Shown piece after piece: positions 14,904 through 35,583 of a DNA stretch of 35,583 nucleotides. Within the stretch, counting starts at the first letter, position 1. The number at the start of each line of letters is the position of its first letter. This DNA is from a virus (lineage: Duplodnaviria; Heunggongvirae; Uroviricota; Caudoviricetes), in the IMG/VR virus record IMGVR_UViG_2711768048_000005, positions 1 through 35,583 of that record; one strand, given 5' to 3'. The position numbers and the translations under genes were made by a program. Below the pieces are notes generated by a model. The model was not told the DNA's origin and did not search any database. It saw only the letters and a program-made list of their open reading frames with translations.

Positions 14904-14916
14904 TTTGATTACTCCA

Positions 14917-14946: not shown

Positions 14947-14951
14947 TAAAA

Positions 14952-15551: not shown

Positions 15552-15608
15552 AGAATTACCCCTTAATTAAAATTGTTTATAACGGGGGAGCTAGTCCCCC
15601 GACTTTTA

Positions 15609-19139: not shown

Positions 19140-19218
19140 CGAATCACCTCACTATAAAACAGGAATAAGGGAGGCGTTAACCTCCCAGCGTTCATGTTTT
19201 ATTTAGGTAGGAGAATCC

Positions 19219-20052: not shown

Positions 20053-20061
20053 TATTACCCC

Positions 20062-20532: not shown

Positions 20533-20758
20533 TGCGCTTAACGTATTGAACTTTGAAACGCTGATTTTCTACAGTGACAACATCACCCTGATTTAAGTCT
20601 CCCTCACGACAGAATAGAAATTCTGTTTCTGTCATTACCCCTTGTTCGTCGGTAGTAGTAATTTCATGATAAGCACGAATTGATTTACCACCTTCCACCG
20701 AAAATACAGGAGCACTCTTAAACATTCTTGATAATTGTGATTCTGATAATTTGAACAT
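20468..20758 (-). CDS. head completion / head-tail adaptor protein (positional call)
   Basis: 96-aa ORF immediately downstream of the capsid gene terminator. Confidence 0.35.
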   Translation of the reverse strand: MFKLSESQLSRMFKSAPVFSVEGGKSIRAYHEITTTDEQGVMTETEFLFCREGDLNQGDVVTVENQRFKVQYVKRNGDNTTDCFITLAGGTHARYR

Positions 20759-20787
20759 AGTTACCCCCTTTATGGAGTATTTACATA

Positions 20788-20815
20788 CAAAAAAGCCCCA
20801 CCGTTAGGCAGGGCT
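20788..20815 (-). terminator. rho-independent terminator after the capsid gene and its extension
   Basis: Minus-sense agccctgcctaacggtggggc followed by tttttt. Near-identical to 14917-14946. Confidence 0.6.
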
Positions 20816-20820
20816 AATTA

Positions 20821-20949
20821 TTATTCTTTAGTTTTACGTTGTTTTTTAACTGTGGCTTTCGCCGTAACCGTCTGGGAATCTTCTTCCGGTTTAGGAATCA
20901 GATTTTCTTCCCCCAAATCGGGGGAAGGTTCAGAAGGTTCTACGCTAGT
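20821..20949 (-). other. in-frame 42-codon extension downstream of the TGA stop of the capsid gene (candidate read-through C-terminal extension)
   Basis: Translation past TGA (20950-20952) gives TSVEPSEPSPDLGEENLIPKPEEDSQTVTAKATVKKQRKTKE, ending at TAA 20821-20823. Same TGA-ACT-A context as the tail tube gene. Confidence 0.45.
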
Positions 20950-22956: not shown

Positions 22957-23001
22957 TTAATCACCTTTAATTAATTGGGGGCATTGCGCCCCCGTTGGTT
23001 A

Positions 23002-24513
23002 TTAGGGATCGGCTGGGGAATTTTTTTCTTCACCCTCGCCATTAACGATAATATTTAGTGCGCTCTTTTCGGCTTGAATCTCTGAGAATACTTTTTCAGG
23101 ATCATCACCACGTTCTAATATAACGGCAGTACGTGATTTAAGTCCTTTATCAATTAAAGCAATATCAGCGTTTACGTCTTTAATAACATCGACAGACTCG
23201 AAACGTGGCCTGATAATAGTAGTGTTATCGATAATATGTGGAATTGCAGTAATACGAATCGGAACAATACCACGCGCGGAATAATGACGCAGATACGCTT
23301 CGAAAATTGGCAATACCACTGTTTCAATCAATTTGTTTTGCAGCGATTTAACACGGTTACGTTGAAGTAGTTCACCGAAACGCGCGGCTGAGTAGTTGAT
23401 TTGTGAACAATCTCCTGTTAAGCCCTGATTGAACACGCCAAGACCCATTGCTATGCTAGTGAACATACCAGCGTTAAAGGAAATGAAATCATCGCCGCTT
23501 TGCGTCGCCTGGATGCTCTTGATCGTTGCCCCTTCCGGCAATTCCTGAATAGTACCCGGCGCGAAATCGTGAATAACTTCCGGCGCTTGATATTGGTCTT
23601 CATCTTCACCAGTATCAAAATCGTCACCAGAATCTTTCGGACGCTCGATGAAACACATAGAGCTAGCTGCAATACGTTTCTGGACCAGTACAGCTTCGCG
23701 GAATGCGTCTTGATGTGCGATATCCTTAATCACTGGCAGGAAGTCAGTCACACCACGCAGAGATTCAGCCGCAAGTGGTTGATAATAATGGCATACTTGC
23801 GAAGCATCTACGCGATAGTTATCACCTGTGTAAGTCTGAGTCAGTAGGTTGATTTTACGAAACCAGTATGCTACGGGCTTCATCGTCTCTACGTCATACT
23901 CCACACCTTGATATATCGCACGGTCTTTGCTTACTTCACGGTTTAGCGCCCAGTCGCACTTATCAGCAGACAGGATAGAAACATTTAACTCATTGTTTTC
24001 TTTGGTTAAAACGATGAAGCACTCACCACCCATAACGCGCTCACGTTCAGCCATTACCAGCAGTTCACGGAAGTTAAAACGACCATTGCGGGAGAAGCGT
24101 TTAGCATTCTGCGCCCACTTCCAGAAAGCATTCTCGATCTGCTTATTCAGTGCGCTATCAAGTTTTCCATTTGATTTAACAACTGACGGCTTCGGATCTA
24201 GGCCAGTACCTACCACCATATCGGTGATGTATTGCGTGTAGCGACTGCCTACGGAAGTGTTTAAGGCCAGAGTACGACCCTGATCATAAAGGCGCTTACC
24301 GTTCGATTTGAGAGCCTTATTGAAGGTTCCTGTGATAGTATCTTGTTGAAGCGATCCATCAATGCGATCACCAACTAAGCCCAAAGAACGCTTAGACAAA
24401 TCTTTCTGGAATTTTTCTACTTGTTTGTCGATAAAGATTTTTTGTTGTTGCTGGCGGTGATTAGTTTTAACTGGAGTTTCTACCGCCTTATTGCGTCGAA
24501 AAAGATTAAACAT
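23002..24513 (-). CDS. portal protein
   Basis: 503-aa ORF between the terminase large subunit and the capsid gene; size and position typical of a portal. Confidence 0.75.
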   Translation of the reverse strand: MFNLFRRNKAVETPVKTNHRQQQQKIFIDKQVEKFQKDLSKRSLGLVGDRIDGSLQQDTITGTFNKALKSNGKRLYDQGRTLALNTSVGSRYTQYITDMVVGTGLDPKPSVVKSNGKLDSALNKQIENAFWKWAQNAKRFSRNGRFNFRELLVMAERERVMGGECFIVLTKENNELNVSILSADKCDWALNREVSKDRAIYQGVEYDVETMKPVAYWFRKINLLTQTYTGDNYRVDASQVCHYYQPLAAESLRGVTDFLPVIKDIAHQDAFREAVLVQKRIAASSMCFIERPKDSGDDFDTGEDEDQYQAPEVIHDFAPGTIQELPEGATIKSIQATQSGDDFISFNAGMFTSIAMGLGVFNQGLTGDCSQINYSAARFGELLQRNRVKSLQNKLIETVVLPIFEAYLRHYSARGIVPIRITAIPHIIDNTTIIRPRFESVDVIKDVNADIALIDKGLKSRTAVILERGDDPEKVFSEIQAEKSALNIIVNGEGEEKNSPADP

Positions 24514-24523
24514 GATTTACCCC

Positions 24524-25018
24524 TTATCGCGTAAGACGTAATTTGATATTTTTAATCGGGCTAATTCCCTGTTTACGTCGTTCGGCTTGAATTAATTTAG
24601 ACAGTTGACGTTCATAATCAGTCTTTAATTGCTGGAGAACACCTAATGACTCATAGGCGAAAGTATTCCCTTTCACGGTCATTTGAGATAATGCGGCTTC
24701 GTCCCCAGATAAACGGGCGAAAATAACTTGCTCGATTGTGGCGATAGTTTCCCGCAGATATTCTTTTTTGGATTGTTTGGCGAATACTGGCAAAACAGTT
24801 AATTCCTGCATTGATACCAGTTCTTCTTCCAAAGTGGTTACGATGGTATATTTACCTTCGGCAAAATCTAAGGTTTTAATCTCATGATTAGCCGGAGAAT
24901 CATCAACCTGATAGATGATACCTTTATTATTTCCTACCTGAATTGTTACACCCTCTTCATTCGCCAGCGTGATTTTTTCGCCTTTACGAATTACTAAGGG
25001 AATTAGTTCTAAACTCAT
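24524..25018 (-). CDS. hypothetical head-morphogenesis protein (164 aa)
   Basis: Track ORF between terminase and portal. No motif recognised. Confidence 0.4.
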   Translation of the reverse strand: MSLELIPLVIRKGEKITLANEEGVTIQVGNNKGIIYQVDDSPANHEIKTLDFAEGKYTIVTTLEEELVSMQELTVLPVFAKQSKKEYLRETIATIEQVIFARLSGDEAALSQMTVKGNTFAYESLGVLQQLKTDYERQLSKLIQAERRKQGISPIKNIKLRLTR

Positions 25019-25090
25019 AATTACCCCTTATTTAATTGTTATTGGATTAACAATATTTAGGAGTAAGCCGCCCCGAAGGACGGCGAGTTA

Positions 25091-26995
25091 TTAGAACGAT
25101 GTTACCCAGCTACGGCCTCTATTTGGGCGTCTGGCGATGTTTTTACGTTGTGGTCGTGTGATTGGCTTAGTTTCTTCGATTTGCTCGTTAGATTGCGATT
25201 TAGGAGCTTCTACGGATTCTTCTGGTTCACGGTTCAAACTATCTTTGATGGCTTCGAGTTTTTCCCATGACATTTTATTGAGTACATGACGAGAAGCAGC
25301 ATAGGAATAAGCCAGGCAGTCCAACGCTTCGTTTCGTGTTTGTCCAACTTTTACCCAACGTGTGGTATTACCCTGCCGTTTCAACTGTTCAGAAAGCAAT
25401 TGCTCGCAATAGTCATCAGGAACGTCACCAATCTGGAAGACAGTGTGAGGATCGCCATCTCTCAAGTTCCGGTTAATCATTTCACGGATCATCGTTTTAA
25501 GGTTGTTTACGCCCAGAATTTTAAGGGTAAAACCACCCGTTCTTGTGTCTTTTACCGGAAGGATTGGTGCATCAACATTGCTTGCGCCTTTAATGGCGGT
25601 TAGATTTTGCCACCGACTACAGAATCGATAGATCACGTTTGTAGCTCGTCCGTTCGATGAGTCCACGAAAGCAGATAACATCGGGATTCGTTCACCGGAT
25701 CGGGTATAGAATTTAGCTTTCAGGAAGTTGTAAAGCTGGTTATATGCTGGTGATTCGTGGCGTTCGCAGTTCACATCATAGAATGATCGGTGATCAACTA
25801 CGCATAGCCCTTTACGAGAAATACCCAGCAAGGTAGATTCCAGACGGTCTTTTTGCTGGTCAACTCCACCTACCAGAGCCAGTACATCATCAGGAATATT
25901 GTCTAGGCTAATATCAGTTTTCAGCGTTTCCAGTTCGTCGGCTGTGCGATCTTCGTTAAGATCATCGAAGGTTTCACCGAGCACCACATTATAGAACGTT
26001 GCCAGCGACATATTCGCGTAGCTATCAGCAAAGTCCACCACACACGCACGGATAGAACTAAACGGAGACATAAGGCGGTTAGCATGAAAACCGATTACTT
26101 CCGCATTTGGTTCGGTGGCGACCCATTCCCCCTGAGCAACAGCACGGAGGCGATCTGGTTCTGACCAATCAGTTTCACATGACGGGCAACGGTAAACGGC
26201 TGTGTCTGGATTCGGCAGTGATTTACCATTGATTACATGCCAATCAAAGAATACTCTACTCCATTCCATTACGTGTTTGTGTCCGCAATGCTGGCAAACG
26301 ACGTGGTATTTTCTTTTATCCGAGAGTTCCCATTGTTGGTTTATCGCCCCATCCCGCGAAGTTGGAGTAGAAGCAATTACGATCCTTGCATCATCACCGA
26401 AAGTGGTTGCGCGTTGTTCCGCTAGCTGGATCGGGTTCCCTTCGTCTGACTCATCAGCCGCATCAACTTCATCCAGAATAATCAAAGGCAGTGTCTTACC
26501 GCGCAAGTGTGATGGACTGTTCAGCGACATGAAATACATGAATGATCCGTTACGAAGCTGAATAATCGATGAGTTGTTAACGGCATTGCGATCTGATTTG
26601 TCGGTGATCATCGCCTTTAATTCTGGGGTTGCCTCTAATACTGGCTTCACCTTACCCGCAATCCATGAGTTCAATTCTCGAACGTTCGCTTGCAAAACAC
26701 CGATATTAGTAGGGTTACTGGCGATCCTGTGAAAGATAATACCGTTTAGCACAAGAGTTTTACCCAACTGCGCCGAGCACTTTAGCACAATTTTTCGCCT
26801 ATCTTCGGTGATCGCGTCCATCATTCCACGTTGGAAGGGATGCAACTTAATTAGAGATCCGGCTTTAACACCATCGGTTGCAACTACATTAGCCTCTACC
26901 CATTCGCTAGGTTTCATCGTTTTAGGTGGGCGAATTGCCGCAGAGATATTTTTAAGAATCTTTTTTAATTTGGCCTTATTAGAAATCAGTTTCAT
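25091..26995 (-). CDS. terminase large subunit (GpA-like)
   Basis: 634 aa. N-terminal ATPase with Walker-A-like LKCSAQLGKT; Cys cluster CQHCGHKH...YRCPSCETD as in GpA-type terminases; C-terminal nuclease-sized region. RBS GAGGGT upstream. Confidence 0.85.
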   Translation of the reverse strand: MKLISNKAKLKKILKNISAAIRPPKTMKPSEWVEANVVATDGVKAGSLIKLHPFQRGMMDAITEDRRKIVLKCSAQLGKTLVLNGIIFHRIASNPTNIGVLQANVRELNSWIAGKVKPVLEATPELKAMITDKSDRNAVNNSSIIQLRNGSFMYFMSLNSPSHLRGKTLPLIILDEVDAADESDEGNPIQLAEQRATTFGDDARIVIASTPTSRDGAINQQWELSDKRKYHVVCQHCGHKHVMEWSRVFFDWHVINGKSLPNPDTAVYRCPSCETDWSEPDRLRAVAQGEWVATEPNAEVIGFHANRLMSPFSSIRACVVDFADSYANMSLATFYNVVLGETFDDLNEDRTADELETLKTDISLDNIPDDVLALVGGVDQQKDRLESTLLGISRKGLCVVDHRSFYDVNCERHESPAYNQLYNFLKAKFYTRSGERIPMLSAFVDSSNGRATNVIYRFCSRWQNLTAIKGASNVDAPILPVKDTRTGGFTLKILGVNNLKTMIREMINRNLRDGDPHTVFQIGDVPDDYCEQLLSEQLKRQGNTTRWVKVGQTRNEALDCLAYSYAASRHVLNKMSWEKLEAIKDSLNREPEESVEAPKSQSNEQIEETKPITRPQRKNIARRPNRGRSWVTSF

Positions 26996-27038
26996 GTAAT
27001 TACCCTCATTACGAAATATGAAGGTATTTATTAAATTG

Positions 27039-27066
27039 TTGATATTTTGATAAATACGGATATTAA
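27039..27066 (+). promoter_or_regulatory. candidate sigma70 promoter (TTGATA-16-TATTAA) for the repeat-containing gene
   Basis: Hexamer match only; it would place the transcript start very close to the SD, so weak. Confidence 0.25.
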
Positions 27067-27082
27067 GATTTAAGGGGGGTGT

Positions 27083-27196
27083 ATGCTAATTAATCAGCAA
27101 GAAAGAGATGAATTAGAATTAGCCTTGTCTTGTCTTGTCTTGTCTTGTCTTGTCTTGTCTTGTCTTGTACCGATCATGAATATCGTTTGCCAGTAA
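27083..27196 (+). CDS. leader ORF: ATG with strong SD reading through (CTTGT)9 and stopping out of frame (current OFF state)
   Basis: SD AAGGGGGG then ATG 27083. The frame passes through the repeat and ends at TAA 27194-27196 (37 aa). It is in a different frame from the 196-codon ORF. Confidence 0.35.
   Translation: MLINQQERDELELALSCLVLSCLVLSCLVPIMNIVCQ
27124..27168. repeat. perfect pentanucleotide tandem repeat (CTTGT)9
   Basis: 45 nt of nine uninterrupted CTTGT units read directly from the sequence. Confidence 0.95.
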
Positions 27197-27720
27197 AACA
27201 TAAGCACTTAAAGACTGATTACACAACATCTGGCTTTAGTCGTGAGGAAGCGAAAGAGATTTTAATAGAGTTTTACCGCGATAATGGTTATACAGACGTT
27301 CACAACTTCTTTAAGAAGCATAGAACATCACATACAGAGTTTCGGAGAGTCCGAGAATGGTTTGATTTTGATATCAAGCGTTATTATCGAGTGGATGACG
27401 GTCCAATCTATCGGTTGCAGTGGAAGCCGATCAGGGAAGTGCTTAAACAGAAGAGATTGAATCATGCCATTACACGCTATCGTAACGTGGCTTTCAAGAA
27501 AGGCTATGGTGATACAAGGGAATTGTTTGTAGAACTCGCTAACGTGCGATATAGCCACTATTACAGGAATCCTAAAGAGTTCTTCGAAGTGCTGCGCAAG
27601 GTTGATATTAGTCGGGGTACATATTATTCACGGTTGAAGAAGTACGGGATTAAGGCAGAGTTCTTTATGTCGGTTGACGATGGAGAACTTTTTCCGATAA
27701 AATGTAAGTCCTCTAAATAA
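27130..27720 (+). CDS. 196-codon open frame with no in-frame ATG (candidate phase-variable gene; basic, Tyr/Arg-rich product)
   Basis: Track ORF begins at a TTG inside the repeat. Its C-terminus shares a motif with the two small paralogues (27756-27980, 31052-31231). Confidence 0.45.
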   Translation: MSCLVLSCLVLSCTDHEYRLPVKHKHLKTDYTTSGFSREEAKEILIEFYRDNGYTDVHNFFKKHRTSHTEFRRVREWFDFDIKRYYRVDDGPIYRLQWKPIREVLKQKRLNHAITRYRNVAFKKGYGDTRELFVELANVRYSHYYRNPKEFFEVLRKVDISRGTYYSRLKKYGIKAEFFMSVDDGELFPIKCKSSK

Positions 27721-27722
27721 AG

Positions 27723-27980
27723 GTGAACATTCACTTTAATTTGGAGAAAATGACTATGACTACTAAAGCTACTCGCGGTCGCCCTGTCCGTTTTAATCGT
27801 GAACAACTGGCAGCGATTGTAAAAGCGTACTATCAAGCGCCGAAAGGTAAAGCCGAAAAAGAACAAGTATTGAGTGAACACGGTATTTCAATTGCTCAAT
27901 TCTACAAATCACTCCATAAAGTTGATTTGAAATTCTTTGTTCAGGTTGACGGTGAAATGGTAGAAGCAACAGGAATTTGA
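27723..27980 (+). CDS. small putative DNA-binding protein, paralogue A (likely start ATG 27756, 74 aa)
   Basis: RGRPVRFNREQLAAIVKAYY...GISIAQFYKSLHKVDLKFFVQVDGE aligns with the product of 31052-31231. Terminator follows. Confidence 0.5.
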   Translation: MNIHFNLEKMTMTTKATRGRPVRFNREQLAAIVKAYYQAPKGKAEKEQVLSEHGISIAQFYKSLHKVDLKFFVQVDGEMVEATGI

Positions 27981-27986
27981 TTCTCT

Positions 27987-28017
27987 AGGCCAATCCTTCG
28001 GGGTTGGCCTTTTTTTA
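27987..28017 (+). terminator. rho-independent terminator
   Basis: aggccaatcc-ttcg-gggttggcct followed by ttttttt. Confidence 0.65.
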
Positions 28018-28084
28018 TGCACATGCGCTTAAAGTTCAGCGCATCTATATTCTTCCGACAAATCCAAATCTGGATGCACCAAAT

Positions 28085-28109
28085 ACAAAAAGCCCCTGAA
28101 ATTCAGGGG
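28085..28109 (-). terminator. rho-independent terminator for the Rha-like gene
   Basis: gcccctgaa-a-ttcaggggc hairpin with a T-tract on the minus strand. Confidence 0.6.
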
Positions 28110-28117
28110 CAAAATTA

Positions 28118-28960
28118 TTACAGTCCGAAGACTTCCAGTGATCCAGCATTCTGACGAATCAGCAAAGCGGTATTATTGACGATTGCTCGCGAGTTATTCG
28201 GTTGTGGCAATTTCAAAGTTGCGGCTTTTTCTTCTTCAAGCAATCCGAGTTTTACAAGATGCGGGATAGCATCAGCAGTGAACTCAATCTGACCGTGTGC
28301 CGACATACGAGCGAACATATAGCCAGGAGGAAGCAGATCATAGCCTTTAGGCTTACCAGAAGCATCCAGACGACGCTCAAGAACACCAGCAGCACATAAA
28401 CCTTTCAGAATCATTTGTACCTTCGTAGAGCCTCGTTTTTCGCCTAATAAGCGGCTAAGACTGTGTGTGTCGATAGCTTTACGAACATGCAATTCAACCA
28501 GTTGTTTCTTTTCTTGAATCAGTTGTTCGTTTGCGGCTTCCAATTCCATTGCCTCACGAATCCAGTCGAGCTTAGTCATGTTTGCGTAAGGGTTGATTTG
28601 CTGAGAACGCAGTTTTTCATTTTCTTCTTTCAGTCGCTTCCATTCCTGAATAACAACCATTCGACGCTTAACATCGTAACCAGTGACAAGAGTCAGCGTC
28701 ATTTCTTCGTCTAAGTGATATACTGGTTCTTTAACAGCATATCCTAAGTTATTGATTCTCTCGACAAATTCAGTTTTGAGCTGATCGATAATACCTAAAG
28801 ATTCGTACATTTCGCGAATATCGCGCATTATATTGCTGTGCTTCTTATCGGTAAATTCAGCGATCTGACGAGAAGACATGGTCAGCGGTTTGGTGTTATC
28901 AACAACCAGAGACACAGAAGCAGTTTTAACAGCAGTATTCATAGTAGTAACAGTATTCAT
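28118..28960 (-). CDS. phage regulatory protein Rha-family (antirepressor-like)
   Basis: N-terminal segment LTMSSRQIAEFTDKKHSNIMRDIREM matches the conserved Rha-family N-terminal motif as I recall it. Confidence 0.65.
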   Translation of the reverse strand: MNTVTTMNTAVKTASVSLVVDNTKPLTMSSRQIAEFTDKKHSNIMRDIREMYESLGIIDQLKTEFVERINNLGYAVKEPVYHLDEEMTLTLVTGYDVKRRMVVIQEWKRLKEENEKLRSQQINPYANMTKLDWIREAMELEAANEQLIQEKKQLVELHVRKAIDTHSLSRLLGEKRGSTKVQMILKGLCAAGVLERRLDASGKPKGYDLLPPGYMFARMSAHGQIEFTADAIPHLVKLGLLEEEKAATLKLPQPNNSRAIVNNTALLIRQNAGSLEVFGL

Positions 28961-29050
28961 AGTAAAATCCCCCTTAAACGGTTTTGCGATTTAATCCTCC
29001 CTGTTCCGGCAGCATCACCGGAACAATTTTATTTATAAGAAGTTTTTATC

Positions 29051-29197
29051 TCATTTAGATTCAGCAATCGCGCGATCAATTTCTTCTTGAATGCGACGCT
29101 GGCGTTCATGGAAGTCAACCATTGAGAAATTCAGGTTTGGGGTCCACGGTTTGCGGTTCGGGTTTTTACGTCCATCAATTTTCTTAGTAGTGTTCAT
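29051..29197 (-). CDS. small basic protein (48 aa), speculative
   Basis: ATG with AGAGGG 9 nt upstream; product MNTTKKIDGRKNPNRKPW...; sits between a predicted promoter and the Rha-like gene. Below the track cutoff. Confidence 0.25.
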   Translation of the reverse strand: MNTTKKIDGRKNPNRKPWTPNLNFSMVDFHERQRRIQEEIDRAIAESK

Positions 29198-29255
29198 AAT
29201 TAACACCCTCTTTACAAATCTAGGTCAAGTAGGTTCAAAGTTGTCAAGTGCGATA

Positions 29256-29283
29256 ATCATAAAAAAGTCATAAAATTTGTCAA
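29256..29283 (-). promoter_or_regulatory. sigma70-like promoter on the minus strand (TTGACA-16-TATGAT) with flanking palindromic operator-like sites
   Basis: -35 TTGACA is the reverse complement of 29278-29283 and -10 TATGAT of 29256-29261. Flanked by TTGTCAA-N6-TTGACAA (29277-29296) and TAGGTCAAGT (29221-29230). Confidence 0.5.
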
Positions 29284-29318
29284 TACTCCTTGACAAGACG
29301 CCAAAGGGTTGACCTAAC

Positions 29319-29786
29319 TTACAGCATATCTAAGCCTTCGTCGTAACCGTAGAAGCCATTCTGAGAAGAGAAACAGATTGGTGCGTAGTCGTCGTCATCT
29401 TCGTCTTGTTCATCTTCTTCTGGGGCTTCCTGAGCGGTTTCTTTGCCGTAGTTAAACATTGCTTCATCCAGTTCATAGACAGTAACGAAGCTACCCAGAT
29501 CAATGTCACCGGAACGAACTTGAAACGGCAGATCATCACGAACAATAATTGCTGGTAGATTCTGGTACTTTAAGCGTTCTTCATCGGTGAAGACGTTAAC
29601 AACAATGGTCGGCTTCTTATTACGGCAAAACGCATACCATGCACTAGAGAAATGAGATTCATCAGAGTTGAAAAGAATGTTGTAACCACGTTCACGGAAC
29701 ATCTTCATTAACTTGTCATTGTGGAAGCTATCAGCATCAAAACCTAACAGGATGAAAGGAGTAGTGGTAGTCATTTTATGGTTCAT
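29319..29786 (-). CDS. hypothetical protein with acidic C-terminal tail (155 aa)
   Basis: Track ORF with RBS AGAGGA; C-terminus EEDEQDEDDDDY. No motif recognised. Confidence 0.45.
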   Translation of the reverse strand: MNHKMTTTTPFILLGFDADSFHNDKLMKMFRERGYNILFNSDESHFSSAWYAFCRNKKPTIVVNVFTDEERLKYQNLPAIIVRDDLPFQVRSGDIDLGSFVTVYELDEAMFNYGKETAQEAPEEDEQDEDDDDYAPICFSSQNGFYGYDEGLDML

Positions 29787-30361
29787 AGTGGAAATCCTCT
29801 AAAAGAAAGTGAATCAATCTAATATTATTTATAAAGAGAAAATTCTTGTTATTATGAAAAGAGTGATTGTATTCAGTCGGGCAAAGCCCTCCTTCATGAT
29901 TTGATTAAATCATCATCAAAACGAAGAAGTATCTTTAGAATATAAGAATCTTTCTTTTGGAGAAATAATAATAATCAGGAAGCAATTTAGCAACCGAAGG
30001 TTGCAATCCCGAAGGGATACCAATACCTTTCTAGAAAGTGATTGTTACTCACTTCGTTCGTTTACTAGAATCAGTTAGTAACTAGTATTAAATCCCTTTC
30101 TAAGAAAATCCTTTCAAAAGCGAGTGAACGCCGTAGGCGTGAACGTGAGCGAAGCGAACTATCCAATCCCTTTCGAATCCTGCTTGCAGGTCTTAGAAGG
30201 TGTTGATGGGCGCTTCGCGCACGGCTACGCCGTATTCTTTTTGCGAGATCTTTCTTGAACGTAGTGAGAGAAAACGAGCAAAAAGGAGAACGTTAGTTCG
30301 AATTTTATATTCTATGGTCTGTGGGGTGAAATGTCTTTCAAGATCATACAATTATGAGATT

Positions 30362-30486
30362 GAAGTGTAGGGTTAGTGTAGGTGTGTAGGTTTCATAGTG
30401 TAGGTTTGAGGGTGTTATAGTGTAGGTTTACTGGCTAGTGTAGTGTAGGCCAATCCCTTTAAAGCGTAGGTTTGTAGTGTAGGTTT
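30362..30486. repeat. iteron-like array: about 8-9 copies of (TA)GTGTAGG(TTT) at irregular 8-23 nt spacing
   Basis: GTGTAGG (one copy GCGTAGG) read at about 30365, 30376, 30384, 30398, 30420, 30442, 30465 and 30475, with a partial GTGTAG at 30437. Lies inside a 1.25-kb stretch with no ORF of 60 aa or more in any frame. Confidence 0.7.
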
Positions 30487-30680
30487 TTCATCAAAAATTT
30501 TGATAGAAAATCCTTGTGTATTATTTAACCGGAAAATCACCAAAAATCGCTGTAAATGCATGATTTAAAAAGAATTATCAAAAGGTCGCCGTGCTATAAT
30601 AGGTTATAAAGGTTGATAATCGTTATCCGCCATTTTCACATAAAAATTTTGATAGTCATTTCTCGCTTAGGTCAAGTGTA

Positions 30681-30709
30681 TTGACAACTGTCAAGGATTA
30701 TTTTATACT
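30681..30709 (+). promoter_or_regulatory. near-consensus sigma70 promoter (TTGACA-17-TATACT) overlapping a palindrome TTGACA-AC-TGTCAA
   Basis: Hexamers and spacing read directly. The same TAGGTCAAGT 10-mer (30668-30677) occurs at 29221-29230. Confidence 0.6.
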
Positions 30710-30844
30710 TTTTCTCTTTGATAGGGGTTGAAATTTTCGAAACAATCCCCATATTGATGATAAGCAAGATTTTTTCGTGTATAAATACATGCATGAAATG
30801 ATTGTTCACTTCTGAAAATCCCCTGATTCACTGTTAACACATAC

Positions 30845-30872
30845 GGCACTGGTTAAACATACAGTGCCTTTT
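30845..30872 (+). terminator. intrinsic terminator/attenuator in the leader downstream of the 30681 promoter
   Basis: ggcactg-gttaaacata-cagtgcc followed by tttt. Confidence 0.45.
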
Positions 30873-31036
30873 CGATTGAATAATGTACGAATTGATTAAT
30901 TATTAATCTTCTCTTTAGCAATTCGTGCTCCCACTGATCAGATATACAGTGGTTTTACAGGGTTTTCTGAAATGACTTTTATAAATAGAAGTATCGAGGG
31001 CGAAAAGCTCTTTTTATTGTCCTTATTAATCCACAT

Positions 31037-31231
31037 TTGAGGAATCTACTTATGGCTAGACCTGTTAAGTTTACTCGTGAAATGATTGTTGATATTGCTA
31101 AACGCTTTTATGGCGATACTGAACGAGGCGGCGAGAATTTCTTTAAGAAGGAAGGAATTGATAGAAGCGGATTCTATAAGCTAATGAAGAAATACGAAAT
31201 TCAGATAAAGATTAACGTTCAAGTTTGTTAA
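31037..31231 (+). CDS. small putative DNA-binding protein, paralogue B (likely start ATG 31052, 59 aa)
   Basis: MARPVKFTREMIVDIAKRFYG...GIDRSGFYKLMKKYEIQIKINVQV aligns with the product of 27756-27980. RBS GAGGA 8 nt upstream. Confidence 0.5.
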   Translation: MRNLLMARPVKFTREMIVDIAKRFYGDTERGGENFFKKEGIDRSGFYKLMKKYEIQIKINVQVC

Positions 31232-31347
31232 TCCACTTTCACTGAGAATTATATGATGGCTTTAAAAATAAAAAGCCTCCCTTGTTGCAGCAAAGGAGGC
31301 TTGAAATGAACAATTAAAACTAACACAGCATTCAGGAGTATTTATAA

Positions 31348-32349
31348 ATGAAAAATTCTAAGCGCATCACCTTCAACCTGTTTATTAAATCCAACGGCAA
31401 ACTGAACATTACCGTCATGGAAGGTAAAGCAAGCAAACAAGACAAATCCTTTGAAGTAGTATCCGGTAAGACTCTGACCGAAATGCGTCAGAATGCTGGC
31501 ATCAAAGACGGTGCTGAATGGCAGATCACTAACCGTTTCGACAAACGTCACGTTAAACCTACACTGGTAGAAGGTGAATCCGTTTATTGCTTCGCTCGTG
31601 CTGTTAAAGCCGATGAAACTTACTATCTCGCTGTTGTTAAAACTGCTTCCGGCTTCCGTGCTGTAATGCATCACAAGAGCAAGCGTAACGAATACGGCGT
31701 AGAGACCCAGGAAGTCGCAAAACGCTTCCGTACTGTTGCTACTGAATCCACTGTAAAGGATGTTTCTGGTACTGTTAACACCGCTAAAGGCGGTTCCTTC
31801 TACAACCACGCATTACAGGTTACTTCCTCCTTCTTCTGCAAAAAAGAAGCACAGAAAGAAGTTGCTCCGGTAGTAGTTGAAGAAGTTAAAGAAGAAGTTG
31901 CAGTGGTTGAATCTTCCGAAGTTGAAGCACTGAAAGCACGCATTGCTGAACTGGAAGCTGAAAACGCATCTCTGAAAGCTGAACTGGCAGCGCAGGAAAC
32001 CACTTTCGAAGTAGCAGCGGTTGAAGTTGAAGCAGTTGAAGAAAAATCCATTGATGAAGAACTGGAAGAACTCCTTAACTATCGCTGGGGTAACGGTGAA
32101 AAAGTAGAACAGGAAGAACAGAAAGAAGCTGATCCGGTAGTAGTTCCGGTTGAAGAAAAATCCGCACCTGTTACTAACTTTGAATCCCTGCGCAATAACT
32201 TTATGGCTAAATTCAAAACCACTTGGGAAGATACCGAAGAAGAACAAGAAGAGATTGAAGTAAACGAAGACGAGATCCGCGAAGCACAGATGGCACTGCA
32301 TGACGCTATCTACGACACCAACTACAGCGCCTACGCATACGCAGCTTAA
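31348..32349 (+). CDS. hypothetical protein, basic N-terminal domain plus long acidic coiled-coil C-terminal half; strong codon bias
   Basis: 333 aa with RBS AGGAG. Codon choice (cgt, ggt, ctg, tcc, acc, gaa, aaa) looks like highly expressed E. coli genes, unlike its neighbours. C-terminal half is E-rich. Confidence 0.6.
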   Translation: MKNSKRITFNLFIKSNGKLNITVMEGKASKQDKSFEVVSGKTLTEMRQNAGIKDGAEWQITNRFDKRHVKPTLVEGESVYCFARAVKADETYYLAVVKTASGFRAVMHHKSKRNEYGVETQEVAKRFRTVATESTVKDVSGTVNTAKGGSFYNHALQVTSSFFCKKEAQKEVAPVVVEEVKEEVAVVESSEVEALKARIAELEAENASLKAELAAQETTFEVAAVEVEAVEEKSIDEELEELLNYRWGNGEKVEQEEQKEADPVVVPVEEKSAPVTNFESLRNNFMAKFKTTWEDTEEEQEEIEVNEDEIREAQMALHDAIYDTNYSAYAYAA

Positions 32350-32364
32350 TAGAGGGGTGAATCT

Positions 32365-32607
32365 ATGATGAATCAAAACAAAGAATTTCTGGGTAATCTG
32401 ATGTTAGAAATTACCAGAATGAAAGAAAGAATGGTAGCGATGGAATCAGAGATTAAAACTCTTAAAGCTGATAATAAGGCGTTGAGAAAGTCCTTAAAGC
32501 TGATTGATGAGACTAATGCGGTTATGATGGATCATGTATTCCCTGAGTGGCGAAATGAAACTAAACCTACACAACATAAGAAACTTACACTTCGAATTGT
32601 TGCATAA
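32365..32607 (+). CDS. small coiled-coil protein (80 aa)
   Basis: Track ORF 12 nt downstream of the previous stop, with a GAGGGG RBS. Confidence 0.45.
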   Translation: MMNQNKEFLGNLMLEITRMKERMVAMESEIKTLKADNKALRKSLKLIDETNAVMMDHVFPEWRNETKPTQHKKLTLRIVA

Positions 32608-32632
32608 AAAAAAGGGACTCCGAAGAGTCCCT
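32606..32632 (-). terminator. terminator (A8 / agggactc-cgaa-gagtccct)
   Basis: Hairpin with a T8 tract on the minus strand. Ends minus-strand transcription coming from the terminase small subunit side. Confidence 0.55.
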
Positions 32633-32709
32633 AGTAAGTTTAGGTTAGGTTTGCACAACAAAGATGAGGTTATAATGAACATAATGCTACATTATTCTTT
32701 AAAGCCAGA

Positions 32710-32733
32710 AAAATAACCGCCCCGAAGGGGCGG
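32710..32733 (-). terminator. GC-rich hairpin terminator (ccgcccc-gaa-ggggcgg)
   Basis: Stable stem with a T-rich tract on the minus strand. Confidence 0.5.
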
Positions 32734-32882
32734 GAGGATTAATACTCAATCTATACTTGTTATGTTTTTGTGTTGTATGGATCACTGACTATGAAAACAC
32801 TGTTTTTATGGCTTTTAATCGGGAACTCTCTTTCGAAAATTCCCTGTTAAAACCACATAAGGAGAAAAGGCAGATTACAATA

Positions 32883-33056
32883 TTATTTAGTGTCTGATTT
32901 ACAGCAACTAAAAAGAATAAACAGGATTAAACATACCCAGCCGTAAGGCGTACCGATTAGAAATTTGAAAAACACCACCAGCGATATAAAAATCAATTTA
33001 ATGCCAGCGACGATAGTCAAAAACAGCAGAGTAGCAAAGTAGACAAAAAGATCCAT
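32883..33056 (-). CDS. small two-helix membrane protein (57 aa), speculative
   Basis: ATG with GAGGAT upstream; product MDLFVYFATLLFLTIVAGIKLIFISLVVFFKFLIGTPYGWVCLILFILFSCCKSDTK is highly hydrophobic. Below the track cutoff. Confidence 0.3.
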   Translation of the reverse strand: MDLFVYFATLLFLTIVAGIKLIFISLVVFFKFLIGTPYGWVCLILFILFSCCKSDTK

Positions 33057-33109
33057 AGATAATCCTCTTTGAAAACGACCATCATCTATAGTTCAATTCA
33101 TCGATTTAA

Positions 33110-33211
33110 TTAATGATACTTGAAAGCATTACACACAGCAGAAATGCCAATGTGAGCAAATGAATATACGATAGTTAATCCTACAGCCAGATAAATCAAA
33201 AATTCAACCAT
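33110..33211 (-). CDS. small hydrophobic peptide (33 aa), speculative
   Basis: ATG with GAGGA 8 nt upstream; product MVEFLIYLAVGLTIVYSFAHIGISAVCNAFKYH. Confidence 0.25.
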   Translation of the reverse strand: MVEFLIYLAVGLTIVYSFAHIGISAVCNAFKYH

Positions 33212-33241
33212 AGGTAAATCCTCAAATAAGAAAAAGGTTAG

Positions 33242-33260
33242 CGGGGGATGTTCTCCCCCG
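33242..33260 (-). terminator. hairpin terminator downstream of the terminase small subunit candidate
   Basis: cggggga-tgttc-tcccccg with a T-tract on the minus strand. Confidence 0.45.
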
Positions 33261-33307
33261 TAGACGTTGACCATCAACATCTTTCATACATTTATTTATA
33301 ACGCGTT

Positions 33308-33862
33308 TTAAGACACATCAAATTCATCGTCTTCTTCTGGTTCTTGTTCCGGTTCATCCATTAATGGTAATTCTTCTTCCTCGTCTTCTCCCAAATCAGC
33401 ATTTTCGAACAAGTCCCCTACTTCATTTAAACGACGCTCGATGATCTCCCTTAGCTTATTCTTCAATGTTTTCTGATCGGTAGCAGATTCGAGAATTTCT
33501 AAAGCATCGATCGTACAAATCTGCAAGATAGTCTGCTTCACCTTCCCACAATATTCAGCTAGCTCCTGTTCTACATAACCGACCGGAATCAGGAGGTTCA
33601 TCGCTTCCTGGTTCTCTCGTTCGGCTGCATCTGCTAAAGCACGTTCACGGCGTAATTTCTCTACATCGATTTGTTCTTTGATAGAAGTTTGTTTAAGCGG
33701 GTTGATAATATTTTTCAAGACCCATTCTGTTCCTTCTTTGGCTGGCACGCGGCGGGTATTGGTGTTAAATGGCAATCCCCTTTCTATCCATCGCTTAGCG
33801 CCACCATTCAATGAATAGCCGTATAAACGGGAAATTTCTGTAAGGGTTAATTCTTCTTTCAT
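33308..33862 (-). CDS. terminase small subunit candidate (Nu1-like HTH protein)
   Basis: 184 aa. N-terminal HTH-like segment (LTLTEISRLYGYSLNGGAKRWIERGLPF), central EKLRRE motif and acidic C-terminus, matching lambda Nu1 architecture as I recall it. Unusually, it is 6.3 kb from the terminase large subunit. Confidence 0.5.
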   Translation of the reverse strand: MKEELTLTEISRLYGYSLNGGAKRWIERGLPFNTNTRRVPAKEGTEWVLKNIINPLKQTSIKEQIDVEKLRRERALADAAERENQEAMNLLIPVGYVEQELAEYCGKVKQTILQICTIDALEILESATDQKTLKNKLREIIERRLNEVGDLFENADLGEDEEEELPLMDEPEQEPEEDDEFDVS

Positions 33863-34220
33863 TGGTTATCCTCCATTAAATTTGCGTAATTTTATTTATT
33901 GGTTTTACGCACAATCTAAGCGCCTAAATCGCATTCTAACGAAGGGAAAGATCCAGTAATGGTAAGGGTTAGGAAGTGGGTTAATAGTCGCGTAGCGACC
34001 GCGCCATGAGTGAAGTGATCACGTTTTAGATCCTGACGCGCACATGAAACACCGCCGTGCCGAAAACTCCCTTTATTTCATCCGTGGAACAGTACCTTTT
34101 TAATTTGTCAAGCATTAATTTCTTAATTTAATTACTAAATCTCATCCCAATAATTGAAAAAATATCAAAAATCAATAAAGTAAGCATCTAAAAGTCAGTC
34201 CATACCAAAAGAGGTATAAA

Positions 34221-35000
34221 ATGAAAAACATTATCGCTGCTATCGTGCTTTCTGCTACTGCTTTCGGTGCTGATGCTGCGTCCTTTGATTGCACTAAGGC
34301 TACTACCAAATCAGAGAAGTTTATTTGTGCTAACGAGTCTATCTCCGCGCTGGATTCTAAACTCCATGAGGTATATGTTAAGGCTGTTAAGATTGATCCG
34401 TCGCTTAAACAAGAGCAACGCAACTGGAATAAAACTGTTCGTGATACAATGATCAATATCGGGCAGATTCAGCCACTGGAGGCTGTATACAACGCTCAAA
34501 TCCAAAACTTGATGAATGTATTATCTAAAGAAGAAACCGCGTCAGAGAGCGATTCAGAGACTTCTGCGAAGGTTGAAGAAGAACAACCGAAACAGGAAGA
34601 AGTAAAGAAACTGAATGTTACCGCGATTTACGCATGTACTACAAAATTTACATGGAAAGTTATCGATGGTGAGGAAACAGAAGCTGTAAAAGATAAACTC
34701 TACGGAAACAAAACTTTTGATAATAACGGCGGTAAACTTAAGATCAAAATGGTAGACGATGTTCCGGTATCTTTTGTGTATTCCGACAAGTATGATGTTT
34801 ATAAATCAAGTCTCAAGCCATCTAAAGAGAATCCAAACGCAATGGAAGGTAAATCCAAACAGGATACTATTGGACGTGTTAACACTTATAACATCTGGGT
34901 AAGCAAAAAAGGTGACATGCGTCTTGAAGTAATTGAACCAAAATTTGATTCTGAATATAAACACACTCAATTTGCATGTGACATGGTAGACGCAGAGTAA
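34221..35000 (+). CDS. secreted protein with N-terminal LprI/DUF1311-like (lysozyme-inhibitor-like) domain; moron
   Basis: Signal peptide MKNIIAAIVLSATAFGADA. The following FDCTKATTKSEKFICANESISALDSKLHEVY resembles the Cys-containing LprI-family N-terminal motif. Confidence 0.55.
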   Translation: MKNIIAAIVLSATAFGADAASFDCTKATTKSEKFICANESISALDSKLHEVYVKAVKIDPSLKQEQRNWNKTVRDTMINIGQIQPLEAVYNAQIQNLMNVLSKEETASESDSETSAKVEEEQPKQEEVKKLNVTAIYACTTKFTWKVIDGEETEAVKDKLYGNKTFDNNGGKLKIKMVDDVPVSFVYSDKYDVYKSSLKPSKENPNAMEGKSKQDTIGRVNTYNIWVSKKGDMRLEVIEPKFDSEYKHTQFACDMVDAE

Positions 35001-35008
35001 GAGGTGAA

Positions 35009-35089
35009 ATGATGCAATTCAATAGCATGAAGATTACTCAAAAATGGTGGGATGCGATGAAAGCTAACCACCAGAACGATATTAATTAA
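35009..35089 (+). CDS. small ORF (26 aa), speculative
   Basis: Strong RBS AAGAGGTGA then ATGATG; product MMQFNSMKITQKWWDAMKANHQNDIN. Confidence 0.2.
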   Translation: MMQFNSMKITQKWWDAMKANHQNDIN

Positions 35090-35232
35090 GTAACATTTTA
35101 GATATACAGCACCCAGCTAACAGATCACCTTTTATGGATTTCATTATAACCCCTTTGATCTGGAAACTATGTTAATTAGTTGATTTCTAAGCCTTGTCCT
35201 TGTGATGGGGCTTTTTATTGCAAAATTTTTAG

Positions 35233-35583
35233 TTATTTTGGGTTGACTACATTCGGGTTGCCAATTCGCCTGGCTAACTCTTGCTGAGTGATTTCTGACT
35301 GTAAAAAAGCATTTAACAGCAATACCTTAGAGGCGACGCTCAAAGGTACTTCAATAAAGTGATCGTGACTATTTAATGGCGAAGGTAAAGGGATAAGCTC
35401 GTTATCTTCAAAATAAAAATCAAATGCGGTCAGTAAAGCATCTTTTGCCGCTTCCATCGCTTCAGCGACAGTTTCGCCCTGGGTCAACGCTTCAGGGATA
35501 TCCACAAAAGAAACCATATAACCGCCTTCCGGCGCGGGTGTAAGAGTGACGGGATAACGCATAATTTCGACTGTCTCTCGCAT
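35233..35583 (-). CDS. hicB: HicB antitoxin, 3'-truncated at the prophage junction (host gene; real start MRYPV at about 35562)
   Basis: Translation MRYPVTLTPAPEGGYMVSFVDIPEALTQGETVAEAMEAAKDALLTAFDFYFEDNELIPLPSPLNSHDHFIEVPLSVASKVLLLNAFLQSEITQQELARRIG matches E. coli HicB as I recall it, then diverges into NPNVVNPK-stop at about codon 101. Confidence 0.75.
   Translation of the reverse strand: MRETVEIMRYPVTLTPAPEGGYMVSFVDIPEALTQGETVAEAMEAAKDALLTAFDFYFEDNELIPLPSPLNSHDHFIEVPLSVASKVLLLNAFLQSEITQQELARRIGNPNVVNPK

What the first reader, a model, noticed from the sequence alone, without database searches (positions are those of the whole stretch)
35090..35583. Prophage-host junction inside hicB: antitoxin truncated and given a short phage-derived tail
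The minus-strand ORF at the right edge encodes roughly the first 100 residues of what I recall as E. coli HicB, then diverges into NPNVVNPK-stop exactly where the AT-rich phage-like sequence begins (about 35236-35262). The N-terminal toxin-binding part would be retained, but the C-terminal DNA-binding domain that autoregulates hicAB would be lost. Integration may therefore alter expression of a host toxin-antitoxin system.
Basis: partly seen in the sequence, partly recalled or inferred. Interest (0 to 1): 0.55.

Follow-up and report, generated by a model that had tools for sequence, protein, structure and literature searches.

The report
Prophage end splitting the hicB gene
The right edge of the window is where a temperate E. 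coli phage, inserted by its own serine integrase, has cut the host antitoxin gene hicB in two. The case is clean but fairly ordinary, and there is no sign that it harms or reshapes the host.

Summary
Confirmed. Window 35260-35583 (minus strand) is the 5' part of chromosomal E. coli hicB and matches K-12 base for base. Identity ends at the dinucleotide TT (35258-35259), which is the AA of Lys102. Phage DNA then adds eight codons (NPNVVNPK) and a stop.

The rest of the window is a ~35 kb prophage that encodes a large serine recombinase (1503-3182). In six complete lysogens the missing 120-nt hicB 3' piece lies at the recombinase end, next to ydcR. Joining the two pieces at TT restores an intact 138-aa hicB in all six.

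37 of 5426 complete E. coli genomes carry this junction, and NCBI's PGAP annotation pipeline already marks both pieces as pseudogenes. Sister phages whose integrases differ in the DNA-binding region split ycdX, also at a TT, or codB. The target therefore looks sequence-driven.

The truncated HicB keeps the HicA-binding domain. It loses the recognition helix and everything after it, including the C-terminal dimerisation strand. Loss of autorepression with retained neutralisation is inferred, not shown.

An apparent excess of a hicA-null allele among lysogens vanished once a second null allele was counted (27% versus 24%). Verdict: new member of a known kind, moderate-to-low interest.

The parts
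35260..35583 (-). Host-derived 5' part of hicB. It holds 21 nt of upstream sequence, the K-12-annotated start at 35562, and codons 1-101 of HicB. This is the B' arm of attR.
   Evidence: 100% identical to K-12 hicB. tblastn with HicB, E=5e-67. Pfam HicB_lk_antitox only, no HTH_3. PGAP pseudogene 'missing C-terminus' in related genomes.
35258..35259 (.). Inferred crossover dinucleotide: TT on the + strand, which is AA of the Lys102 codon in the hicB sense.
   Evidence: It is the only sequence common to the host-derived parts of attL and attR across the family. In the ycdX-targeting sister phage the attL/attR overlap is exactly TT when compared with K-12 ycdX. It is the best dyad centre of the reconstructed attP, 11 of 18. 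Joining the two host parts at TT restores hicB in 6 of 6 lysogens.
35233..35257 (-). Phage-derived tail of the truncated ORF. It completes the codon AAC, then gives PNVVNPK and the TAA stop at 35235-35233.
   Evidence: Related prophages have KPKCCKPQ* or NPKCCKPQ* instead, with the stop at the same position. The tail therefore follows the attP arm sequence rather than any protein constraint.
35240..35257 (.). P half-site of attP, the phage arm of attR: GGGTTGACTACATTCGGG.
   Evidence: It forms an imperfect inverted repeat with the P' arm GCCTAATATCATGTACCC seen at attL of relatives. It is conserved, with variants, in all lysogens and in the ycdX-type phage.
35189..35222 (+). Intrinsic-terminator-like hairpin plus T run. 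It closes the rightward phage genes just inside the attachment site.
   Evidence: Consensus scan: 10-pair stem, then TTTATTGCAA. Conserved in relatives that otherwise differ. Function not tested.
1503..3182 (+). Large serine recombinase (phage integrase), 559 aa.
   Evidence: Pfam Resolvase + Recombinase + Zn_ribbon_recom, all above their curated cut-offs. PGAP 'recombinase family protein'. It is the only recombinase annotated in the element.
1..35257 (.). Prophage body as held in the window. The P' arm and attL, about 42 bp plus the hicB 3' remnant, lie just beyond base 1.
   Evidence: Terminase large and small subunits, portal, major head, tail tube, tape measure, tail tip, tail fibre, endolysin and Ant/Rha-like regulator. 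62 of 5426 E. coli genomes hold relatives. Window base 1 is the ATG of the first phage ORF, 43 nt from the crossover.

Best explanation
The right end of the window is attR of an integrated temperate phage.

**Mechanism (inferred from sequence).** The phage's large serine recombinase (1503-3182) recombined attP with an attB inside chromosomal hicB.
- attP is roughly GGGTTGACTACATTCGGG-TT-GCCTAATATCATGTACCC.
- attB, in window orientation, is ...CTCCTGTTTAGGT-TT-GCCAATTCGCC...
- The strands were exchanged at the 2-bp TT, which is AA of codon Lys102.

attP and attB share almost nothing beyond that dinucleotide. The phage therefore does not rebuild the gene, and hicB is split into two pieces:
- a 5' piece (HicB 1-101 plus 8 phage-encoded residues, then a stop) beside hicA at this end;
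- a 120-nt 3' piece beside ydcR at the integrase end, just outside the window.

Shown here: the junction, the integrase domains, the reciprocal remnant in relatives, restoration of an intact ORF by joining at TT, the population frequency, and the alternative targets of sister phages.

**Consequence (inferred from published HicAB biology).** The truncated HicB keeps helix alpha-1 of the N-terminal domain, which packs against HicA, so it probably still neutralises the toxin. It lacks the HTH recognition helix and the C-terminal dimerisation strand, so it can no longer repress the HicB-controlled P2 promoter. P2 makes an antitoxin-only transcript. The likely net effect is constitutive production of a harmless antitoxin without a DNA-binding domain, and little or no fitness cost.

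hicB appears to be hit because of its sequence, not its function. Excision would need a directionality factor, which I did not identify, and would restore hicB exactly.
For: **Junction and breakpoint**
- Sequence and alignment with K-12.
- PGAP pseudogene halves and K-12 synteny in lysogens.

**Integrase**
- Resolvase, Recombinase and zinc-ribbon domains.
- No tyrosine integrase is annotated in the element.

**Crossover at TT**
- attL and attR variants across the family.
- The ycdX case pins the overlap to exactly TT.
- Dyad symmetry of attP variant A centres on TT.
- Conservative recombination; in-silico excision gives a 138-aa HicB in 6 of 6 lysogens, three of them identical to K-12.

**Distribution**
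- 37 of 5426 genomes carry the junction.
- 62 carry the phage family.
- Metagenome contigs show the same attL in hicB (4 contigs) or ycdX (3 contigs).

**Sequence-driven targeting**
- Integrases from phages in hicB (n=15) and in ycdX (n=3) differ at 33 fixed positions. 28 of these lie within aa 196-351, the recombinase and zinc-ribbon DNA-binding domains.
- The two attB sites share TTT.GG.-TT-.CC.
- Integration also occurred in hosts where hicA and the 5' part of hicB were already deleted.

**Domain loss and consequence**
- Pfam HTH_3 at 88-134 is cut at residue 101.
- PDB 6HPB, 6HPC and 6U0I are this protein.
- Published statements that the N-domain neutralises HicA independently of the DNA-binding domain, that a beta-strand after the HTH dimerises EcHicB, that P2 is HicB-repressed and antitoxin-only, and that HicBs without a DNA-binding domain are the commonest classes: PMC11594946 and PMC10865869.
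- 27 of 37 lysogens keep an intact hicA.
- Deletion of ydcQ (= hicB) is viable in K-12: PMC2215328.
Against: - No free or circular attP form was found in IMG/VR, JGI metagenomes or deposited phage genomes. Activity of the integrase and excision are therefore inferred only.
- For this window's own genome attL is not visible. It is inferred from relatives whose integrases are 99.8-100% identical.
- Dyad symmetry round TT is weaker for attP variant B: 8 of 18, with a better off-centre score.
- The functional consequence rests on literature about full-length HicB. Nobody has tested HicB(1-101). The remnant of the HTH plus the foreign tail might destabilise the protein, and loss of dimerisation might weaken neutralisation.
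- No recombination directionality factor was identified.
Confidence: 0.85

Rival explanations
1. Integration into hicB is adaptive. The prophage acts as a reversible switch on the toxin-antitoxin module ('active lysogeny'), or it disarms or rewires a HicAB-based anti-phage defence. On this view the choice of hicB is about function.
For: Joining at TT restores an intact gene, as with SPbeta/spsM (PMC5499854). HicA modules have been proposed as defence elements (PMC10865869). Loss of hicB has phenotypes in K-12: suppression of rpoE lethality and lower envelope stress (PMC2215328).
Against: Sister phages with a swapped DNA-binding region target unrelated genes, ycdX and codB. Lysogens also arise in hosts where hicA is already deleted. 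The overall fraction of hicA-null genomes is the same in lysogens (27%) as in the species (24%). About a quarter of E. coli lack functional hicA, so the module is dispensable. No excised form was seen.
Confidence: 0.12
2. The junction and mechanism are as described, but the truncated HicB is unstable or inactive. HicA would then be partly unleashed in lysogens, giving the phenotype of a ydcQ/hicB null: growth cost, altered envelope stress response, rpoE suppressor.
For: The C-terminal dimerisation strand is lost and a foreign 8-residue tail is added. The 22-bp hicA deletion allele is over-represented among lysogens: 8 of 37 versus 203 of 5426 overall, odds ratio 7.3.
Against: 27 of 37 lysogens keep an intact hicA. 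The 444-bp hicA deletion is under-represented (2 of 37 versus 20%), so total hicA loss is not enriched, p=0.70. The pattern looks like host-lineage structure. HicA neutralisation uses helix alpha-1 of the N-domain and is independent of the DNA-binding domain, and natural HicBs without that domain are common. hicA is made only from the Sxy/CRP-dependent P1 promoter.
Confidence: 0.2
3. The hicB-like segment is phage cargo (a short antitoxin without a DNA-binding domain carried by the phage), or a naturally short hicB allele, rather than a disrupted host gene.
For: The segment lies inside several IMG/VR 'viral' contigs, and short HicBs exist in nature.
Against: In those contigs it always sits at the extreme end, cut at the hicB start codon, which is a prophage-boundary overshoot. 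It is 100% identical to the chromosomal gene and is followed by hicA-yncJ-rlhA in lysogens. It is absent from 50,697 phage genomes. The complementary 3' half lies at the other end of the prophage. Nearly all the other genomes that match lack this junction and align only on the hicB side.
Confidence: 0.02

Closest known systems
SPbeta prophage / SprA serine integrase splitting spsM in Bacillus subtilis (PMC5499854). The skin element / SpoIVCA splitting sigK is similar (own knowledge).
   Same: A large serine recombinase inserts the element inside a protein-coding gene. attP and attB share only a tiny core, so the gene is not rebuilt. Precise excision reconstitutes the reading frame.
   Different: In those systems excision is developmentally programmed and a directionality factor (SprB) is known. 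Here no factor, no excised form and no programmed excision have been shown. The host is E. coli and the target is an antitoxin gene.
Listeria phage phi10403S/A118 in comK, and mycobacteriophage Bxb1 in groEL1 (own knowledge, not checked here).
   Same: Intragenic attB for a phage serine integrase, a 2-bp non-palindromic crossover, and a host phenotype caused by gene disruption.
   Different: Those integrases are only distant relatives. The best match of this integrase in the phage collection is about 30% identity (Bcep176, lambdoid YbcK-type recombinases). A consequence for the host has not been demonstrated here.
E. coli K-12 ydcQ (hicB) deletion mutants (Button et al. 2007, as cited in PMC2215328).
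   Same: Loss of HicB's C-terminal function in an otherwise intact hicAB locus. The mutants are viable.
   Different: The laboratory allele removes the whole antitoxin. The prophage allele keeps the HicA-binding domain, so the rpoE-suppressor and low envelope-stress phenotype may not apply.
Class 1 and 2 HicB antitoxins that naturally lack a DNA-binding domain (Gerdes 2024, PMC10865869).
   Same: An antitoxin made of the partial RNase-H-like N-domain only, which is what the truncated product resembles.
   Different: Those are evolved stand-alone proteins. This one is an accidental truncation that carries about 14 residues of a broken HTH plus 8 foreign residues.

Membership tests
Large serine recombinase (phage serine integrase) | N-terminal resolvase-type catalytic domain | tested here: met
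   Pfam PF00239, E=2e-14, residues 11-158 of the 564-aa ORF, above the curated cut-off. An IRFSS motif is present near the N-terminus. The catalytic serine itself was not assayed.
Large serine recombinase (phage serine integrase) | C-terminal recombinase domain plus zinc beta-ribbon domain | tested here: met
   PF07508 (203-291) and PF13408 (315-373), both above their cut-offs.
Large serine recombinase (phage serine integrase) | Crossover at a 2-bp non-palindromic dinucleotide, with attP and attB otherwise dissimilar and no long direct repeats at the prophage ends | tested here: met
   The attL/attR overlap is exactly TT in the ycdX-type phage. Family-wide overlap in hicB is TT. The shared core in single hicB lysogens is 5 bp (TTGCC), 7 bp (TTGCCAA) or 9 bp (TTTAGGTTT), depending on attP variant. 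This is inferred from junction sequences, not from cleavage mapping.
Large serine recombinase (phage serine integrase) | Imperfect dyad symmetry of attP round the crossover | tested here: inconclusive
   Variant A gives 11 of 18 centred on TT, the best centre. Variant B gives only 8 of 18 there.
Large serine recombinase (phage serine integrase) | Excision needs a separate recombination directionality factor | not tested
   Small ORFs of unknown function flank the integrase (1-273, 273-710, 1020-1439). They have no Pfam hit and match only PHROGs of unknown function.
HicB antitoxin, HTH class (E. coli HicB) | N-terminal partial RNase-H-like, HicA-binding domain | tested here: met
   PF15919, E=5.5e-8, above the cut-off. 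Residues 1-101 are identical to PDB 6HPB chain B.
HicB antitoxin, HTH class (E. coli HicB) | C-terminal Xre-type HTH DNA-binding domain and dimerisation strand | tested here: not met
   HTH_3 (88-134 in K-12) is not detected in the truncated ORF. The sequence ends at native residue 101. This is a disrupted member of the family, not a functional one.
HicB antitoxin, HTH class (E. coli HicB) | Encoded directly downstream of hicA | tested here: met
   hicA lies beyond the window edge. It is adjacent in the six lysogens fetched whole. In a seventh, EC42405, hicA is deleted. hicA is intact in 27 of 37 lysogens.
Regulatory-switch prophage ('active lysogeny') | Precise excision restores the interrupted gene | tested here: met
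   In silico only. Joining at TT gives an intact 138-aa ORF in 6 of 6 lysogens.
Regulatory-switch prophage ('active lysogeny') | Excision occurs in living cells without lysis, is reversible, and is coupled to a host programme | not testable with these tools
   No attP or excised form was found in any collection searched.

The most novel reading that the evidence does not exclude
Lysogeny by this phage family could be a reversible switch on hicAB. Integration would turn the autorepressing HTH antitoxin into a constitutively expressed antitoxin without a DNA-binding domain. That would change HicA activity, envelope-stress or defence phenotypes, and excision would restore the wild type.

Separately, the integrases that target hicB, ycdX and codB form a natural series. 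In it, target choice maps to a roughly 155-residue block (aa 196-351) while attP stays nearly constant. That could serve as a guide for retargeting serine integrases.
Probability: 0.15. Interest if true: 0.6.

Novelty: new member of a known kind. Interest (0 to 1): 0.33.

Why it matters
- **Annotation.** The work explains a recurrent 'hicB pseudogene' annotation in about 0.7% of complete E. coli genomes. It also identifies hicB as the attachment site of an uncharacterised E. coli temperate phage family that uses a serine integrase. Prophage predictors that include the hicB fragment have overshot the true boundary by 324-326 bp.
- **Toxin-antitoxin biology.** The lysogens are a natural allele that separates HicB's neutralising function from its DNA-binding function. 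That makes the two-promoter model easy to test in wild strains.
- **Integrase engineering.** The closely related integrases that target hicB and ycdX are 92% identical. Their differences cluster in the DNA-binding domains, and both use the same TT crossover. They are a compact natural experiment in target specificity.
- **What it does not show.** None of this suggests a new kind of system.

Tried and rejected
1. **Free or circular phage form.** I searched for attP with an exact 18-mer in IMG/VR and got two chance hits. A degenerate 25-mer in IMG/VR and in JGI metagenomes gave nothing. A search with the P' arm alone returned only attL forms in hicB or ycdX plus one unrelated soil contig.
2. **Related isolated phage.** None was found. 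Only the tail-fibre and LprI-family segments match, and they match lytic RB49-like phages. The best integrase match is about 30% identity.
3. **Relatives in GTDB species representatives.** None with close-match patterns.
4. **Phage-borne HicA or HicB that might compensate.** tblastn of both proteins against the window finds only the host-derived fragment.
5. **Does lysogeny select for hicA loss?** At first it seemed so: the 22-bp hicA deletion is in 8 of 35 listed lysogens versus 3.7% overall, p=4e-5. I rejected this after finding that a 444-bp deletion removing hicA is present in 20% of all genomes but only 2 of 37 lysogens. Total hicA loss is 27% versus 24%, p=0.70. The skew probably reflects which lineages the phage infects.
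6. **Literature.** Searches for integration into hicB or ydcQ, and for ycdX plus prophage, gave nothing relevant. The primary papers on EcHicB structure and promoters (Manav 2019; Turnbull & Gerdes 2017) are not held, so I used reviews that describe them.
7. **Rfam scan of the window.** No family was matched.
8. **Structure prediction.** Not run. The full-length protein has solved structures, and a single-sequence model of the fragment would add little.

Full report
**1. The observation**

The window ends in a minus-strand ORF, 35583..35233, of 116 aa. Aligned with the K-12 hicAB locus, its DNA is identical to K-12 from the upstream ATG down to window 35258. After that the two sequences are unrelated, apart from a few scattered matches.

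The start codon annotated in K-12 and used in the crystal structures (MRYPV…, 138 aa; PDB 6HPB, 6HPC, 6U0I) corresponds to window 35562. The product is therefore HicB residues 1-101 followed by NPNVVNPK and a stop, 109 aa in all.

Pfam finds the HicB_lk_antitox domain in both proteins. It finds the HTH_3 domain (residues 88-134) only in the K-12 protein.

**2. It is a prophage-host junction**

The same junction occurs in 37 of 5426 complete E. coli genomes. Nearly all of the other genomes that match align only on the hicB side, from window 35252 rightwards, so they lack this junction. In the lysogens, NCBI's PGAP pipeline annotates the segment as 'hicB, incomplete, missing C-terminus'. It is followed by hicA, yncJ and rlhA in the K-12 order.

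I fetched six lysogens end to end: 14EC017, H2, ETEC1717, MEI003, PRO_A-1412 and L3Cip3. In each a 33-39 kb prophage separates this piece from a 120-nt 'hicB, missing N-terminus' piece that abuts ydcR.

The window begins at the ATG of the first phage ORF, 43 nt inside that left junction. This is why the other half of hicB is not visible in the window.

Joining the two host pieces in silico restores an intact 138-aa ORF in all six lysogens. Three of the six are identical to K-12 HicB. No host base is lost or duplicated.

The hicB segment is absent from 50,697 deposited phage genomes. In IMG/VR 'viral' contigs it sits only at the extreme end, cut at the hicB start codon, which is a prophage-boundary overshoot.

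**3. Mechanism**

The only recombinase in the element is the ORF at 1503-3182. It has Resolvase, Recombinase and zinc-ribbon domains, all above Pfam's cut-offs, which makes it a large serine recombinase.

Junction sequences from 6 genomes, 4 IMG/VR contigs and 4 metagenome contigs show several attP variants.
- At attL, host sequence runs through …TTTAGGT-TT. It is followed by GCCAAATATT, GCCTAATAT, CCCTAATAT or CACTAATAT.
- At attR, the phage arm …CATTCGGG, …CATTTAGGT or …CATTTAGGG precedes TT-GCCAATTCGCC.
- The only host-derived sequence common to both junctions across the family is TT (window 35258-35259).

A sister phage inserted in ycdX settles the point within a single genome.
- K-12 ycdX reads GGGA-TT-TCCGGG.
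- attL reads GGGA-TT-CCCTAAT.
- attR reads TTCGGG-TT-TCCGGG.
- The overlap is therefore exactly TT.

The reconstructed attP of the window's type is GGGTTGACTACATTCGGG-TT-GCCTAATATCATGTACCC. Its best dyad symmetry is centred on that TT, 11 of 18. The second attP variant is less symmetric there.

A 2-bp non-palindromic crossover with otherwise dissimilar attP and attB is the hallmark of serine integrases. It explains why the gene's 3' end is not rebuilt, in contrast to many tyrosine-integrase phages. In the hicB reading frame the crossover is the AA of Lys102. This phage's arm then reads C CCG AAT GTA GTC AAC CCA AAA TAA.

Other arm variants give KPKCCKPQ* or NPKCCKPQ*, with the stop in the same place. 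The tail is a by-product of the attP arm. A terminator-like hairpin on the + strand (35189-35213, then a T run) lies just inside the arm.

**4. Why hicB?**

62 genomes carry this phage family. Those not in hicB are in ycdX (CFSAN061761, PSJ-22, 14EC007) or, with a 73%-identical integrase, in codB (39EVA). All of these sites are intragenic.

Integrases from phages in hicB (n=15) and in ycdX (n=3) are about 92% identical overall and differ at 33 fixed positions. 28 of those lie within residues 196-351, the recombinase and zinc-ribbon domains that read DNA. Variation within the hicB group is mostly in the catalytic domain.

The two attB sites share TTT.GG.-TT-.CC. Two lysogens (EC42405 was examined) carry the prophage in a hicB that had lost its 5' part and all of hicA through a 444-bp deletion. 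That deletion is common in the species. Target choice therefore follows sequence, not the function of the toxin-antitoxin module.

**5. Consequence for the host (inferred)**

Published work on E. coli HicAB, as summarised in PMC11594946 and PMC10865869, says the following.
- HicA is neutralised by helix alpha-1 of HicB's N-terminal domain, independently of the DNA-binding domain.
- EcHicB dimerises through a beta-strand after the HTH.
- The upstream promoter P1 (Sxy/CRP-dependent) makes both proteins.
- The downstream promoter P2 is repressed by HicB and yields antitoxin only.
- HicBs without a DNA-binding domain are the commonest natural classes.

The truncated protein keeps the whole N-domain and the first part of the HTH. 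It lacks the recognition helix and the dimerisation strand.

The most likely outcome is loss of autorepression, so P2 becomes constitutive, while neutralisation is retained. That would be a nearly silent change. Two observations agree with this. 27 of 37 lysogens keep an intact hicA, and even a full ydcQ/hicB deletion is viable in K-12 (PMC2215328).

I tested the opposite idea, that lysogeny selects for loss of hicA.
- A 22-bp microhomology deletion in hicA is over-represented among lysogens: 8 of 37 versus 203 of 5426 overall.
- A 444-bp deletion that removes hicA is under-represented: 2 of 37 versus 1093 of 5426.
- Total hicA loss is 27% in lysogens versus 24% in the species, p=0.70.

The skew is best read as host-lineage structure. 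It also shows that hicAB is dispensable in about a quarter of E. coli.

**6. What remains unshown**

No excised or circular form (attP) was found in deposited phage genomes, IMG/VR or JGI metagenomes. Every occurrence of the P' arm is an attL in hicB or ycdX. No directionality factor was identified.

The prophage in the window looks complete. It has terminase subunits, portal, head, tail, tail fibre, endolysin and an Ant/Rha-like regulator, and no IS insertions. Its activity is nonetheless untested. The window's own attL is inferred from relatives whose integrases are 99.8-100% identical.

**7. Comparison and novelty**

The closest known systems are gene-splitting elements driven by serine integrases: SPbeta/SprA in spsM (PMC5499854), skin/SpoIVCA in sigK, the Listeria comK phage, and Bxb1 in groEL1. 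The last three are from my own knowledge.

The features of a large serine recombinase that can be read from sequence are met. The defining C-terminal feature of an HTH-class HicB is, by construction, not met by the truncated ORF.

I found no paper in the held library that describes hicB as a phage attachment site. PGAP already flags both halves as pseudogenes.

This is a new member of a known kind. The finding is correct and cleanly explained, and its interest is modest. The most valuable by-product is the natural hicB/ycdX/codB series of integrase specificities.

Noticed in passing
window 34221-35000 (+), especially 34215-34602: A phage accessory gene for a lysozyme-inhibitor LprI-family protein. 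About 380 nt at its 5' end is 95-97% identical to a hypothetical gene of lytic T4-like RB49-group phages (Krischvirus). This points to recent exchange between a temperate and a virulent phage.
   Followed up: partly
window 15609-19139 (-), match at 15678-18356; also 14397-14903 (-): The 1176-aa tail fibre is about 74-81% identical at DNA level to the gp37 long-tail-fibre distal subunit of RB49-like Krischvirus phages. The ORF corresponding to 14397-14903 is annotated 'receptor recognizing protein Gp38' in strain MEI003. A T4-type adhesin module sits in an otherwise unrelated temperate phage.
   Followed up: partly
window 1503-3182; loci L033, L050, L051 (ycdX) and L052 (codB): Sister prophages split ycdX or codB instead of hicB. 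Integrases for hicB and ycdX are 92% identical, and 28 of their 33 fixed differences fall in aa 196-351 (DNA-binding domains). attP and the TT crossover are almost unchanged. The integrase for codB is 73% identical.
   Followed up: partly
outside the window: hicA in L047 (PRO_A-1412) 540-694, and L065 (EC42405) around 2715: Two hicA-null alleles are common in E. coli. One is a 22-bp TGCG-microhomology deletion, in 203 of 5426 genomes. The other is a 444-bp deletion removing hicA, its promoter-proximal region and the 5' part of hicB, in 1093 of 5426 genomes including Nissle 1917 and ATCC 11775. About 24% of complete genomes therefore lack a functional HicA.
   Followed up: yes
window 29790-31340: A stretch of about 1.5 kb with no ORF longer than 64 aa, also left unannotated by PGAP in relatives. 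It holds at least five closely spaced copies of a (T)AGTGTAGGTTT-like motif at 30374-30486, which resemble iterons or operators. It may be an origin or control region. Rfam finds nothing.
   Followed up: partly
related prophages L003, L047, L048, L033: Copies of the prophage differ by insertions of IS elements (IS1, IS421, ISKpn26, IS3-family) and of GIY-YIG or NUMOD3 homing-endonuclease genes, and by a DEAD-box helicase gene next to the integrase. The window's copy has none of the IS elements.
   Followed up: no
NZ_CP157110.1 (strain UTME-9): This genome seems to carry two prophages of the family. It has a hicB junction near 2.81 Mb and a second, full-length match at 3.38-3.41 Mb whose insertion site was not examined.
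   Followed up: no
window 20950-22956 (-): The 668-aa 'major capsid' ORF matches both major-head and head-protease PHROGs. This suggests a fused protease-capsid protein.
   Followed up: no
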